This document shows, in pieces, positions 4,559-62,042 of a stretch of 64,000 nt of DNA. Origin of the DNA: Eledone cirrhosa (taxonomy: Eukaryota); contig OZ024755.1 of the NCBI GenBank assembly GCA_964016885.1, positions 27,714,001-27,778,000 of the forward strand, in the 5' to 3' direction. Below the pieces are notes generated by a model. The model had not been told where the DNA came from. It did not search any database and worked only from the letters and a program-made list of their open reading frames with translations. The position numbers and the translations under genes are program-made. The stretch's first letter is position 1. The number at the start of each line of letters is the position of its first letter.

Positions 4559-4639
<81 letters not shown>

Positions 4640-4645
4640 AAATAT

Positions 4646-5112
4646 GATAATAATGGAGCTGCGGCGTTGCAAATGGGTTACATATGAAAAAGTAAGTCCT
4701 TCATCAGTGGCCTTCCAACCGTCCTAGGCATTTCATCACTTTAAACTCTCTCTCTCTCTCTCGTCTGCGACTTCACAGAACTTATGTTTACCGAATTCGC
4801 AGACCAGACCCCTTCTTCCTCCCGTTAGACCTGTGCGAAATTCCTTCCTTGCTCACATTTCAACCAGGTTTGATGGTCTTTAGTCTCTCGTTCACGATTT
4901 CACCGAGTTTATATTCATAGAAATCTGGGACTTGTCTCTTTCTTCTCACTTTCTGTTGCTTAAACCATTTTGTTTGTTCACCCCAGCGTCCCCTTTATTT
5001 ACGTGTCCCAACGACTTTTTTTAGCCGTTGTTCGCACCAACCTGAGGTATATGGCCTTTAAAGTGATGAAATGCCTAGGACGGTTGGAAGGCCACTGATG
5101 AAGGACTTACTT

Positions 5113-5120
<8 letters not shown>
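4646..5120 (+). mobile_element. Family A non-coding retroelement (Penelope-like/retrozyme-like) with an inverted partial terminal repeat
   Basis: 4681-4745 is the inverted copy of ~5057-5120; flanked by (TA)n; homologous to 6877-7756, 8633-9175 and 55896-56402. Confidence 0.75.
5037..5113 (+). ncRNA. Predicted non-circularly permuted hammerhead ribozyme (family A)
   Basis: AGGTAT-A(H17)-TGGCCTT ... GAT-GAA-ATGCCT ... AAGGCCA-CTGATGA-A: stem I TGGCCTT/AAGGCCA, stem III AGGTAT/ATGCCT, distal helix CCAACC/GGTTGG. Confidence 0.75.
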
Positions 5121-5154
<34 letters not shown>

Positions 5155-6809: not shown

Positions 6810-6876
<67 letters not shown>

Positions 6877-6882
<6 letters not shown>

Positions 6883-7756
6883 AATAATGGCTGCGCGTTG
6901 CAAATGGTGGTGCATATGAAAAAGTGAGTCCTTCATCAGTGACCCTCCAACCGTCCCAGGCATTTCATCGCTTTAAGGGCCATATGCCTCAGGTTGGTGC
7001 GAACAACGGCTAAAAAAAGTCGTTGGGACACGTAAATAAAGGGGACGTTAGGGTAACAAACAAAATGGTTTAAGCAACGGAAAGTGAGAAGAAATAGACA
7101 AGTCCCAGATCTCTATGAATATAAACTCGGTGAAATCGTGAACAAGAGACAAAAGACCATCAAACCTGGTGGAAATGTGAGAAAGGAAGGAATTTCGCAC
7201 AAGCCTAACGGGGGGGGAAAGAAGAAGAAGAAGAAGAAGAAGAAGAAGAAGAAGAAGAAGAAGAAGAAGAAGAAGAAGAAGAAGAAGAAGAAGAAGAAGA
7301 AAAAGAAGAAGAAGGGGTTTGGTCTACGAATTCGGTAAACATAAGTTTTGTGAAGTCGCAGACGAAAGAGAGAGAGAAAAAAAATTCCATACCAGCTTGA
7401 CCAGGACGCGCGAGAAAAGAATTTCACACAGGTCAAACTTGAAGGAGGAGGAGGAAAGAGGAGGAGGAGAGGTAGTGACAGAGAATGGGTGAGTGAAAGT
7501 TGAGGAGGAGGCTAACAGAGAGAGAGACTGCTAGAAAGGGTAAAATGTACAAAGAACGAGAAAGGGTAAAGGTACAAAGGACGAAACGGACGGGTAGCAG
7601 CAGAAGAAAAATTATGTGTAAATATGATAATAATGGCTGCGCGTTGCAAATGGTGGTGCATATGAAAAAGTGAGTCCTTCATCAGTGACCCTCCAACCGT
7701 CCCAGGCATTTCATCGCTTTAAGGGCCATATGCCTCAGGTTGGTGCGAACAACGGC
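6877..7756 (-). mobile_element. Family A element with ~133-bp direct terminal repeats (746-bp period), retrozyme/pLTR-like
   Basis: 6877-7009 matches 7623-7756; each repeat holds a permuted HHR (6921-6997 and 7667-7743); (TA)n flanks; internal (GAA)n tract at ~7218-7313; no credible ORF. Confidence 0.8.
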
Positions 7757-8339: not shown

Positions 8340-8632
8340 TCTTTTTAATTTTTATTTCAATACTCAACATTTGATAAGATGAATTTTAATAATACATCGA
8401 AACCGGTAATACTTTATATACTTTATAAAACTTTTTTTTAAAAAGAATTGTCCCGCTAATTTTTTCAATAATCTTCTCAATAATGTCACTTTGACGAATC
8501 AAAGAAAGGATAAAAAAAGAAAAATAGACCATTAAATATATCTTCCGTGCTTCCAACTTCACCTTTTCTCTACATCCACTGTTTTGTATAGAACCTTACT
8601 TCCCTTTTCTAATATATATATATATATAAAAA

Positions 8633-9476
<844 letters not shown>

Positions 9477-12495: not shown

Positions 12496-12800
12496 AGTTA
12501 TTTATAACATACTTGACCTCCTTTTCAACCCAAGAGACACATAAAACATATGTGCATATTGATCAACAGTGGGGTGACATTCATCAAATGAAATAGCATG
12601 GCAATTTACATATAAAGTGTTACATGATAAAAATAAAAATATTTTTTATATATAAGAAATAGGATTTTTTTAATTATAAGTTGAGCCAACTTATGCAGCT
12701 TCATATGCAAATGAGATTAATCACATCATTTACACAGACGAGAAATGTATATATTCTCGGCTGTCTTCTAGTCCAGCAGTCGCAAGCGGTGGGAGGGACC

Positions 12801-12838
12801 GTCCTGACGAAGGCCAGTTAAGCCTGAAATGCATAGAC
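12801..12838 (+). ncRNA. Minimal type I hammerhead ribozyme motif
   Basis: GTC-CTGACGA-AGGC(CAGTTAA)GCCT-GAAA-TGCA-TA-GAC; palindromic ATGCAT stem III as in dimer-forming minimal HHRs. Confidence 0.85.
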
Positions 12839-27349: not shown

Positions 27350-27766
27350 CGTTGTGTGTGTGCGTTGTGTGTGTGTGTGTGTGTGTGCGTGTGTGTGTGC
27401 GTGTGTGTGTGTGTACTTTTCTCTATATGCTGATATATATATATATATGTATATCTAGGGCGGGTAAAATACCCGAGATCCATGTTCCTTGTTTCTTTTC
27501 AGTGGCTGATAATACCTTCCCGGCGCCACTAGAATAAGGTAATTATTTAACCCATATATATATATATATAATGCGCCGAAACATCTGTGACCCGTAGTTA
27601 ACTACTGACGAAGGGATACTGTCCACCTCTTGTTTGTGTCCCCTTACCTTCTAACACCCGTTATCAATAACCACACAGCCCTCATCTTATCTATATTATA
27701 TATATATATGTTAAGCGATGAAATACCAATGATGGTTGGAAGATCACTGATGAAGGACTAACTTTA

Positions 27767-27816
<50 letters not shown>

Positions 27817-30017: not shown

Positions 30018-30232
<215 letters not shown>

Positions 30233-30331
30233 AAAAACATGGGGAGAAGAATACTGCATGGTTGCACATGGATTACATATTATAAAATTAGTCCCTCATC
30301 AGTGATTTGCCAACCATCATTGGTATTTCAT

Positions 30332-30392
<61 letters not shown>

Positions 30393-30583: not shown

Positions 30584-30647
<64 letters not shown>

Positions 30648-30696
30648 AAAAAATGGGGAGAAGAATACTGCAGGTTGCACATGGATAACATGTTAT

Positions 30697-30773
30697 AAAA
30701 TGAGTCCCTCATCAGTGATTTGCCAACGATCATAGATATTTCATTGCATTAAAAATCATATACCTCACGTTGG
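30697..30773 (-). ncRNA. Permuted HHR, diverged family A copy
   Basis: CCAACG/CGTTGG, AGGTAT/ATATCT and TGATTT/AAATCA helices around intact GAAA and CTGATGA. Confidence 0.7.
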
Positions 30774-31086
30774 TGCAATAATAACTAAATTAAGTTATTA
30801 GGACAATTAAAACGCGTAAAGCGAGTGAGACAAGTAAACAATAAAGAGGAAAGCTAACCGTAGATAGGAAGGGAACAAGCTACATAGTTATTCTGTTAGC
30901 ATAAGCTAGGTGAATATATGAGCGCTTAGATATATATATATATATATATATAACGAAGGAAATGTGGTAAGGAACCAGGTGGACCATAACGCACCAAAGT
31001 ACTCAATACTTAGGGTAGTAGAGTGGGTAATAGGAACGAGTAGGACCCCGACGGCTGAGCTCAAGCCGTTTCGACGACTAATTCTG

Positions 31087-31131
<45 letters not shown>

Positions 31132-31273
31132 TCTTCTCGTCATTTGATTTGCCGGACTTAAGCCCACAAGATTCATTGACTTGTCTCTCTTTTCCTCTCT
31201 TTACGTTGCAGTACTACCATGTTGTTTGTTTACTTTCCTCTGTCCCGATAACTTAATTTAGTTATCGCTCGTA

Positions 31274-31345
31274 CTGATTTCAGGTATAGTCTTTAATGCG
31301 AAGAAATACCAATGATAATCAGCAGACTACTGATGATGGACATTC
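31274..31345 (+). ncRNA. Permuted HHR, highly diverged family A copy (2-nt deletion near the cleavage site)
   Basis: CTGATT/AATCAG distal helix, GGTAT/ATACC, (TA)GTCT/AGAC(TA), A-GAA and CTGATGA-T; inverted partial copy at ~31400-31477 across a (TA)n tract. Confidence 0.65.
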
Positions 31346-31364
31346 CTGCTACTCGGTCTATTTT

Positions 31365-31402
<38 letters not shown>

Positions 31403-31621
31403 AAAATAGACCGAGAAGCAGGAATGTCCATCATCAGTAGTCTGCTGATTATCATTGGTATTTCTTCGCATTAAAGAGGTCGGCCGCCTTCAAGAGTATA
31501 TATATATATATATATACTCTTGAAGGCGGCCGACCGAACTAGAAACTGCTAAATGTGTGGCCGCCTTCTTGTCTCTCTGCCTTTTCAGCCCCATCGATTA
31601 TATTCCTTTGTTAAATTTCGA

Positions 31622-55832: not shown

Positions 55833-55895
<63 letters not shown>

Positions 55896-55900
<5 letters not shown>

Positions 55901-56399
55901 GAAAAATGGAGTGCTGCATGGTTGCACATCGATTACATATGAATAAAATTAGTCCTTCATCAGTGATCTTCCAACCTTCATTGGTATTTCATCGCTATAA
56001 AAATCACTTTATACCTCTGGTTGGTGCGAGCAATAACTAAAGTTATTGGGACAAGTAAAATAGCGTGAAGCGAGCGAGACATGTAAACAAACAAAGATGG
56101 TATTGCAACGGAAAGATAGTAAGAGACAAGTACATGATATCTATAAGCTTAAGCTTGGTGAATTCATGGACGAGAGATACAGACCATCCGACATGGGTGA
56201 GATGTGAGCGAGAAAAGGATTTCACACAGGTCAAACGGGAGGAAGTGAGAGAGGGGGACAAGCAGAGAGTGAGTGAGTGGAAGTGTGAGGAAGAGGCCAG
56301 CCGAGAGAGAGAGTGTGACTGGCAGAGGGAGTAAAAAGATTTTTAAAGCGATGAAATACCAATGAAGGTTGGAAGATCACTGATGAAGGACTAATTTTA

Positions 56400-56402
<3 letters not shown>
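55896..56402 (-). mobile_element. Family A element with a permuted HHR (55945-56024, minus) and an inverted partial copy (56338-56402, plus)
   Basis: Homology to other family A copies; (TA)n flanks. Confidence 0.8.
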
Positions 56403-56444
<42 letters not shown>

Positions 56445-60664: not shown

Positions 60665-61920
60665 CACACAAGAAGAACAAAATAAGTGAAGCTAAGCGTC
60701 CATTCTGTTAACGCGTTTCATTAAAGAAGAAAAAAGAGAAATATAGAGATATGACAGCTGAAGAAGATATGTGAACTCATGTTATATTCAAGTTATCCAT
60801 TCTTGTAATTTTCTTGCATTCCCTATAGAATTTGACAACTGTTTTTATCACTAAAGATACAGACATGGTGCAATAGTCCACTATCTTGTCGGCATTTATA
60901 CTATAAGTCAGCCTTATGTTATTTGAGAATCTGTTAGTGTCAAAACATTTCAGCCATGATTTATAATAGCTTAAGAAAAACAGTAAAAATTGATAAAAAG
61001 GAAAATAAAATAGATAATAACTATATTCATAGAAATTCTGAGAGGACATTTCTGAATATGTCAAAGAATTTAATTTTCTTCGTAGCCGTGTCTAATAAAT
61101 AATACAAAATAATATTTTGCCATTCCACCTCATATTCAATTAAGTACTAAGCTTACATTAATCGCGCCAGCAATCTGATGATATTTTCGCCATTTTCTCC
61201 TCATCTTCTGCTTATACAGAAATATTACTAATATCAGTTTTATCATTCAGAATAAAAAACGTGTAATTGAAATCATTATTAGTAGGCTGTTCCATAATAA
61301 TAGCGAGCCAATTTGTCTTCTAATAACTAATTCAGTGATCAGCTGTCTATATATTTATCTATTAGTTGAGGAGTGGATATTTCGTTTTATGGAGTTGTGT
61401 TATTTTATTACTTATAATGTGAACAATATACACGAATTATTACTTCTGTTCTTTTGCTTAGTTTTTTATTGTTTACTTTATAATATTTGTTCGAGATCTA
61501 AGATCCTTGTGGGCTGAATTTTTCTCCTTTTGGTATCGGTATTAATCGTATTATAACATAAGCTGAGCGTTGATATATTGTAAATATTTCAAAGATAAAT
61601 GTGATTGCACACATATTGAAGGAGCATTTATCAAAATATTGGGTTTCAAACCTAAATTACACTTTGTTTCTGCCTTCGAAACAATCCCGTGTTATAACGC
61701 ACACACACATGCTTACGCGCGTGCACAAGTATAGCACTTTTTACAAAACATTTTTTTTTTCCATTATCCACTTTTCTAAAAAATAAATCATACATAAAAC
61801 GCCAGCATCAACAATTTTGCAAGAGATGTCAACATGAATGGATCTGTTATTTTTATCTAAACACATTTTTTCCAATTCCACCCCGCCCGTCCCCTCAATC
61901 TATTTTACTTTTCATTCTTT

Positions 61921-61955
61921 CTTCTGATGAAGGACTAGCGTCCGAAACGTTAACA
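61921..61955 (+). ncRNA. Degenerate minimal HHR (Penelope-type CTGATGAAGG...CCGAAACGTT)
   Basis: CTGATGA-aGGAC(TAGC)GTCC-GAAA-CGTT; stem I is poor. Confidence 0.55.
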
Positions 61956-62042
61956 ACCCTCTTCCTGCTAATCAAGCATTAACCTAATATATTACTTCCA
62001 TATACTGTACCGATTGTGTTGTTATTCCTGTTTACCTTTTAC

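What the first reader, a model, noticed from the sequence alone, without database searches (positions are those of the whole stretch)
56338..56402. Truncated family A copies all start just downstream of the predicted cleavage site
Seen: five partial copies lack the upstream substrate strand and begin about 1-11 nt into the sequence 3' of the predicted scissile UA. They start at 56338 (GATTTTTAAAGCG), 4745 minus (TTTAAAG), ~31476 minus (TCTTTAATGCG), ~27711 (TTAAGCG) and ~30334 minus (GCGATG). Inference: these are reverse transcripts of RNAs whose 5' end was made by self-cleavage, which would be independent genomic support that the permuted ribozyme worked in vivo.
Basis: partly seen in the sequence, partly recalled or inferred. 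Interest (0 to 1): 0.75.

Follow-up and report, generated by a model that had tools for sequence, protein, structure and literature searches.

The report
Faint ribozyme-cut footprint in retrozyme copies
These are front-shortened copies of a small non-coding jumping repeat that carries a scrambled-order hammerhead motif predicted to cut its own RNA; most copies run straight through the predicted cut, but about five times more than at nearby control positions stop in the dozen bases just after it, which likely records occasional self-cutting in the germ line.

Summary
The five partial copies are real and start at +2, +6, +4, +8/10 and +10/12 after the predicted cut. "All" is wrong: 8 of the 13 family-A cores in the window cross the cut, and in a sample unselected for truncation 252 of 267 do. 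Family A is a 500-750 bp tandem, (TA)n-targeted, Penelope-type non-coding element with a strongly covarying S-G-C (non-circularly permuted) hammerhead. Genome-wide, the inference partly holds. (TA)n-joined 5' ends at -2..+12 occur in 6.7% of copies, 4.6-fold above -8..-18 per base, with a one-sided drop upstream. In 7 of 13 short fold-back junctions the longer arm fits +1 exactly, and none passes -3. But the main hump lies at +8..+12, not +1, on an AT-rich palindrome, and an unrelated hotspot near -300 is half as strong. Best reading: a minority of templates were cleaved RNAs, most were uncut or circular (0.55). Cleavage is untested. The scan noted this ribozyme, its Naiad link, and similar cut-site excesses before, on other DNA of this genome.

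The parts
56338..56404 (+). Inverted short arm of a two-armed insertion; starts at +2 (+2..+4), holds the G and C blocks, ends in (TA)n
55889..56339 (-). Long arm of the same insertion; 5' end near -331, crosses the cut, with a 3-base insertion (56007-56009) exactly at the predicted cut
4630..4745 (-). Inverted short arm starting at +6
4753..5124 (+). Long arm, 5' end near -299 (the CTCT hotspot), full ribozyme, cut predicted at 5051/5052
27711..27771 (+). Short copy starting at +8..+10 after a TA run
30221..30334 (-). Short copy starting at +10..+12 after (TA)28
31395..31477 (-). Short copy of a diverged subfamily starting at +4
31230..31372 (+). Copy of the same diverged subfamily that crosses the cut; appears to lack 2 bases at the cleavage triplet; 5' end not mapped
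9009..9116 (+). Complete S-G-C hammerhead with four-way junction and pseudoknot; cut predicted at 9059/9060; this copy starts at -64
8630..8996 (-). Head-to-head partner of the 9009 copy, 5' end near -296, crosses the cut
6864..7756 (-). Partial tandem (one whole 746-bp unit plus a second core); starts at -28 and crosses the cut twice
30636..30930 (-). Copy with 5' end near -173, crosses the cut
27571..27625 (+).

Best explanation
Family A is a non-coding, tandem 500-750 bp Penelope-type (likely Naiad-driven) repeat whose copies mostly run through the predicted hammerhead cut, and the modest excess of copies that start in the 12 bases after it likely comes from a minority of templates whose 5' end was made by self-cleavage. 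SHOWN: two fixed 3' ends, (TA)n targets, partial tandems, inverted arms, dispersed 5' ends, a covarying S-G-C hammerhead fold, a 4-5-fold one-sided excess of ends at -2..+12, and fold-back arms stopping at +1. INFERRED: a Penelope-type reverse transcriptase starts at one of two internal sites about 73 or 120-130 nt 3' of the cut. On uncut or re-circularised RNA (roughly nine events in ten) it passes the site and stops at scattered places or makes tandems. On cleaved linear RNA it runs out at +1; the cDNA end is then trimmed or annealed at the nearest TA/AT overlap with the target (+8..+12), or folds back on the TTTAAA palindrome.
For: (1) (TA)4 within 14 nt upstream of an anchor, reverse strand, one match per site: +26..+12 168/5350; +12..-2 402/6015; -8..-18 85/7919 over 11 nt; -49..-63 36/3540. 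Per base against -8..-18: 2.1, 4.6 (3.6-5.8), 1, 0.7. The -49..-63 control has its own TA/TAT overlaps. (2) All 43 listed -2..+12 sites were read: none has the substrate strand upstream in the same orientation, so none is a TA expansion inside a full copy (one is an internal deletion). (3) Sample step: 3.4 ends per 1000 nt at +28..-4 against 1.1 at -5..-84, P 6e-5 (bins chosen after seeing the data). (4) Short head-to-head junctions: 56 with anchors at +16, 13 at +7, 5 at -14. Of the 13, the longer arm fits +1 exactly in 7 (10 allowing filler) and none passes -3; null 0.11-0.17, P<=0.003 (by-eye reading). (5) 21 of 23 hits have an unambiguous junction at +1, roughly 2-3 times the upstream level by my estimate. 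(6) The element's best overlap with (TA)n (TATAT, -4..+1) is not the hotspot, as expected if those templates lacked it. (7) Fold: 93% of cells paired, 19 of 35 pairs with two-sided changes, 6 of 7 in stem I, which fixes the cut register (16 hand-picked copies). (8) Precedent: R2 templates with a ribozyme-made 5' end give slightly truncated insertions (PMC11331408, passages) and variable microhomology junctions (PMC3774820, abstract).
Against: The hump is at +8..+12 (24 of 38 independent ends; about 8-fold) while the cut class -4..+2 is only about 2-fold, interval 0.9-4.0. That patch is AT-rich and palindromic, and about 13 of the 50 listed +16 fold-backs centre on it. A hotspot near -300 reaches 63/1980 = 3.2%, no lower than the cut window in the GCC-type subfamilies (68/1811 = 3.75%, ratio 1.2, 0.8-1.7). 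In the sample the target bin was only 15 against 8.2 expected (P 0.02), and two other bins had higher rates. One subfamily sample gave 1 of 30. No ligation scars: 1 clear insertion at the cut in 249 read-through copies. The canonical stem II is only one base pair. For the Penelope element PAc, unprocessed RNA is the main template and no RNA-seq reads ended at the ribozyme site (PMC11167929). The fold-back set is small and read by eye. Cleavage has not been assayed.
Confidence: 0.55

Rival explanations
1. Sequence hotspot without cleavage: the U-rich, AT-rich, palindromic patch at +4..+11 makes the RNA:cDNA hybrid fray and offers overlaps with (TA)n and with itself, so uncut templates are abandoned there more often.
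For: The hump sits on TTTAAA/TTTTAAT. Subfamilies that include the longer U run show twice the rate (7.9% against 3.75%). The -300 hotspot is also a pyrimidine tract.
Against: The TA-containing control at -49..-63 gives 1.0%. The U7 loop at -38..-28 has 3 ends in the sample against 7 at +1..+12. The 5-base TATAT overlap at -4..+1 is not the hotspot. The rival does not predict fold-back arms that stop at +1 and never pass -3.
Confidence: 0.3
2. A transcription start (or another non-ribozyme RNA end) near +8..+12, with a second near -300, defines the 5' ends.
For: Two humps of similar shape. TA at +8/+9 fits a pyrimidine-purine initiator (recalled consensus, not tested).
Against: Ends at +1..+7 are also raised and fold-back arms reach +1. 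A start at +9 would leave out stem I.
Confidence: 0.08
3. One reading: truncated copies in general are reverse transcripts of self-cleaved RNA.
For: 5 of 13 window cores start at +2..+12.
Against: 252 of 267 sampled cores that retain +12 cross the cut, and 77 of 287 run a whole unit further.
Confidence: 0.02
4. Chance plus selection: 5' ends are uniform and five were picked.
For: The five were chosen afterwards, and the sample excess alone is weak (P 0.02).
Against: 402 against about 90 expected genome-wide on one strand. The sample histogram is non-uniform (chi-square 64, 30 df).
Confidence: 0.05

Closest known systems
Type-SGC hammerhead ribozyme (HRIMA-1 and variants; Eckert et al. 2023, PMC10085705; text parts 3-5 of 8 and passages read)
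   Same: Block order S-G-C, intact CUGAnGA, GAAA and UH, a short linker between stems I and II, and an extra helix tying stem I to the stem II side.
   Different: There it was found only in metatranscriptomes, none in genomes of known organisms; here it is in more than 14,000 genomic copies. Stem II is one pair opening into a four-way junction that needs an upstream strand. Cleavage was shown there and is untested here.
Metazoan non-LTR retrozymes (PMC7229834, passages; bioRxiv 10.64898/2026.07.22.740005, parts 1-2 of 5)
   Same: Short non-coding tandem units, one hammerhead per unit, dispersed monomers to multimers, proposed to be moved by Penelope-like elements.
   Different: Those carry type I hammerheads and were shown as linear and circular RNA. 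Here the ribozyme is non-circularly permuted and no RNA was examined.
Naiad / Penelope-like elements (Craig et al. 2021; bioRxiv passages, PMC8557442 supplement hits)
   Same: 5' truncation, partial tandems, inverted 5' arms, a tail between two 3' ends, (TA)n preference. The supplement record ending just before Naiad_Ovul (Naiad_Obim by file order) ends in the same S-G-C layout, by eye.
   Different: Family A encodes no reverse transcriptase or endonuclease (longest ATG frame 144 aa). Naiads were reported to lack hammerheads.
R2 elements with 5' HDV-like ribozymes (PMC3774820 abstract; PMC11331408 passages)
   Same: A ribozyme-made RNA 5' end leaves variable, slightly truncated, overlap-guided junctions.
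   Different: In R2 the cut defines the element's 5' end. Here only a minority of copies end near it.

Membership tests
Type-SGC hammerhead | Blocks in order S, G, C | tested here: met
   128 distinct descriptor hits (nearly all of the top 45 shown are this family or its sisters) against 0 in 1.55 Mb of resampled sequence
Type-SGC hammerhead | Core CUGAnGA, GAAA and UH conserved | tested here: met
   Invariant or nearly so in 16 hand-picked copies; H is A or C
Type-SGC hammerhead | Stems I and III with covariation | tested here: met
   Two-sided changes in 6 of 7 and 2 of 6 pairs
Type-SGC hammerhead | Stem II formed directly between the G and C blocks | tested here: inconclusive
   Only one pair (U-A 8, U-G 4, A-U 3 of 16); the flanks pair with an upstream strand in a four-way junction
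Type-SGC hammerhead | Helix linking stems I and II | tested here: met
   6-bp pseudoknot, 5 of 6 pairs with two-sided changes; equivalence to the published helix is inferred
Type-SGC hammerhead | Site-specific self-cleavage | not testable with these tools
   Only the indirect end distribution
Non-LTR retrozyme | Short non-coding tandem units, each with a hammerhead | tested here: met
   80 tandem spacings of 413-848 bp; no long frame
Non-LTR retrozyme | Type I hammerhead | tested here: not met
   Order is S-G-C; GAAA precedes CUGAnGA
Non-LTR retrozyme | Expressed as linear and circular monomer RNA | not testable with these tools
   No run on record as RNA was available to test it
Penelope-like (Naiad) non-autonomous element | Two 3' ends separated by a tail | tested here: met
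   81 of 207 terminal cores end 25-34 nt and 115 of 207 end 70-90 nt after the start of CTGATGA
Penelope-like (Naiad) non-autonomous element | Partial tandems and inverted 5'-truncated arms | tested here: met
   77 of 287 cores read through a unit; 63 of 210 ends abut an inverted arm
Penelope-like (Naiad) non-autonomous element | (TA)n target preference | tested here: met
   100 of 210 5' junctions are microsatellite; 3' ends run into TA repeats
Penelope-like (Naiad) non-autonomous element | An autonomous partner in this genome with the same 3' end | not tested
   Only a by-eye match of the layout to a published Naiad end

The most novel reading that the evidence does not exclude
A non-circularly permuted hammerhead with a four-way junction, so far known only from environmental RNA, is active in an animal germ line. 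Its cuts are recorded in the genome as on the order of a thousand mini-insertions that start within 12 bases of the scissile bond. Naiad-type elements then use a mix of cleaved-linear and uncut or circular templates, in a ratio that differs between subfamilies and can be read from the genome.
Probability: 0.45. Interest if true: 0.78.

Novelty: new variant of a known kind. Interest (0 to 1): 0.52.

Why it matters
What hammerheads do in Penelope-like elements is open: in vitro the uncut RNA is the main template and no cleaved ends were seen in RNA-seq (PMC11167929). A countable genomic footprint gives an estimate of how often cleaved RNA is copied (about one event in ten or fewer) and a way to compare subfamilies. 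It would also be indirect in vivo support for a scrambled-order hammerhead in a named group of animal mobile elements thought to lack one. The footprint is modest and has a serious sequence-based rival, which caps the score.

Tried and rejected
Rfam scan of the window: 133 sub-threshold matches, mostly hairpin artefacts, no hammerhead family. Terminal-inverted-repeat (MITE) reading of 55939-56404: rejected, the repeat is an inverted arm of a tandem unit. TA expansion inside full copies: rejected. Ligation scars: not found as a class. Position-chosen 10-kb stretches (40 on C1-C4, 20 beside the window) gave too few copies, so positional lists of exact-pattern hits on C1 were used. Rows left out before the count, from 306 anchors: 4 non-family, 4 duplicates, 11 in the window; L001-L010 were excluded beforehand as selected for full length. 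The -15..-29 window (59 sites) has no normaliser and is not used as a rate. The exact-junction control at -10 (9 hits, 3 true ends) excluded TA flanks while the +1 search did not, so the two are not compared. One search ran on a tally of 7/7/23 of 37; a recount gave 7/7/24 of 38. numbers negative positions one higher than used here. Sequencing runs: no RNA holder listed; contigs of two unlabelled runs showed nothing on RNA ends. Literature: five answered searches listed no title or abstract opening on an S-G-C hammerhead in an animal or a Naiad; bioRxiv supplements were closed and those of PMC10085705 were not opened.

Full report
Observation. With +1 as the first base after the predicted UH cut, they start at +2 (56338), +6 (4745), +4 (31477), +8..+10 (27711) and +10..+12 (30334). 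The window has 13 family-A cores. The other eight cross the cut; six start at -28, -64, -173, -296, -299 and -331, one runs a whole unit, and one was not mapped. So 'all truncated copies' is a selection.

What family A is. The window lies in a 3.0-Gb genome. Five exact subfamily patterns count 1264, 4300, 5351, 1979 and 1813 copies. Units are mostly 500-750 bp and occur as partial tandems, pyrimidine-rich, with no ATG frame over 144 aa. The 3' ends are fixed: 81 and 115 of 207 terminal cores end about 30 and 70-90 nt after the start of CTGATGA. This matches the two internal start sites and tail described for the Penelope element PAc (PMC11167929, part 2 and passages). Of 210 5' ends, 100 abut a microsatellite and 63 an inverted arm, the structure described for Naiads and other Penelope-like elements (bioRxiv 2021.04.23.441226, passages).

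The ribozyme. The blocks come in the order substrate, GAAA, CUGAnGA: type SGC of Eckert et al. (PMC10085705, parts 3-5), reported there only from metatranscriptomes. A descriptor gave 128 distinct hits against 0 in resampled sequence. On 16 hand-picked copies, 93% of cells pair and 19 of 35 pairs change on both sides; slid controls give 30-48% (related sequences inflate the shuffle test). Stem I covaries in 6 of 7 pairs, which fixes the cut register. Stem II is a single covarying pair opening into a four-way junction, and a 6-bp pseudoknot ties it to stem I. Earlier scan notes linked this fold to Naiads; I checked one published end by eye and saw the same layout (PMC8557442 supplement hits). 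Cleavage is untested.

Sample histogram. I took loci by position from lists of hits to the C block, which does not select for truncation upstream of +37, plus position-chosen stretches. Of 306 anchors, 287 remained after removing 4 non-family, 4 duplicate and 11 window anchors. 77 run a whole unit and 210 end at scattered places. The bin -4..+12 has 15 ends against 8.2 expected (P 0.02); +13..+28 has 14; bins near -300 and -445 have higher rates. Of 267 cores that retain +12, 252 cross the cut. A further subfamily gave 1 of 30 at +8. The strong form of the claim fails.

Genome-wide counts. I counted anchors with (TA)4 within 14 nt upstream, on the reverse strand, where the lists show one match per site. 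+26..+12: 168 of 5350. +12..-2: 402 of 6015. -8..-18 (11 nt): 85 of 7919. -49..-63: 36 of 3540. About -290..-304: 63 of 1980. Per base, the window after the cut is 4.6-fold (3.6-5.8) above -8..-18. Anchors differ in subfamily mix: GCC-type subfamilies give 68 of 1811 (3.75%) and the rest 7.9% by difference. All 43 listed sites were read; none is a TA expansion within a full copy. After collapsing duplicates and one internal deletion, 7 of 38 fall at -4..+2, 7 at +3..+7 and 24 at +8..+12 (by eye): about 2-, 2.6- and 8-fold over the upstream level. The excess is real and one-sided, but its mode is 8-12 nt from the cut.

Sharper tests. Short head-to-head junctions number 56, 13 and 5 with anchors at +16, +7 and -14. 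In the +7 set, where an arm could reach -9, the longer arm fits +1 exactly in 7 of 13 (10 with filler) and none passes -3; the simulated null is 0.11-0.17, P at most 0.003. About 13 of the 50 listed +16 junctions centre on the TTTAAA palindrome, which needs no cleavage. A search for unambiguous junctions at +1 gave 23 hits: 21 true 5' ends, one internal deletion ending at +1, one single-base insertion at the cut; its control was not matched. Scars at the cut are not a class: 1 clear case in 249.

Mechanism. Most likely the reverse transcriptase usually copies uncut or circular RNA, as found in vitro for PAc, and sometimes a cleaved linear RNA. In that case it runs out at +1 and the cDNA end is resolved at the nearest overlap with the (TA)n target or with itself. 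R2 offers a precedent for slight truncation and overlap-guided junctions after a ribozyme-made 5' end (PMC3774820 abstract; PMC11331408 passages). The main rival is a sequence hotspot on the AT-rich palindrome. It explains the mode and the -300 hump, but not the floor at +1 or the low rates at other TA- and U-rich places. I put cleavage at 0.55, the hotspot at 0.30, a start site at 0.08, chance at 0.05.

Novelty. Five answered searches listed nothing on this permutation in an animal or a Naiad. Within the scan, the ribozyme and its Naiad link were noted repeatedly, and cut-site excesses were noted for repeats elsewhere in this genome, once judged ordinary; these are unchecked notes and not support. 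Verdict: observation partly confirmed, interpretation partly supported, new variant of a known kind, interest 0.52.

Noticed in passing
L238 and L247 (two places): A propagated deletion variant joins the base just before the predicted cut directly to about -319; the breakpoint is exactly the 3' end of the predicted 5' cleavage product.
   Followed up: no
window 56007-56009 (-); L345; L339; window about 31286: Single cases of change exactly at the cut: a 3-base insertion, a 1-base insertion, a deletion ending at +1, a 2-base loss. Not enriched as a class.
   Followed up: partly
unit position about -290 to -305 (window about 4753 and 8996): Second 5' end hotspot on a T/CT tract, 3.2% genome-wide; could be a transcription start.
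   Followed up: partly
window 27571-27625; L010, L171, L333: Distant sister family with the same S-G-C order and four-way junction but different sequence.
   Followed up: partly
window 61915-61960: A canonical-order hammerhead-like motif (CTGATGA, 4-bp stem II hairpin, GAAA) of another family.
   Followed up: no
window 12795-12835: Another canonical-order hammerhead-like motif (CTGACGA ... GAAA).
   Followed up: no
window 1193-57000, many places: An abundant 110-190 bp SINE-like repeat in about 20 copies.
   Followed up: no
whole window against 200 kb beside it: Family A is unusually dense here: 11 of 14 anchors in 264 kb fall in the 64-kb window.
   Followed up: no
L172-L180: A nine-core tandem array of about 740-bp units.
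   Followed up: no
L058, flank 3' of the copy: Flank resembles a reverse-transcriptase coding fragment by eye; not translated or tested.
   Followed up: no
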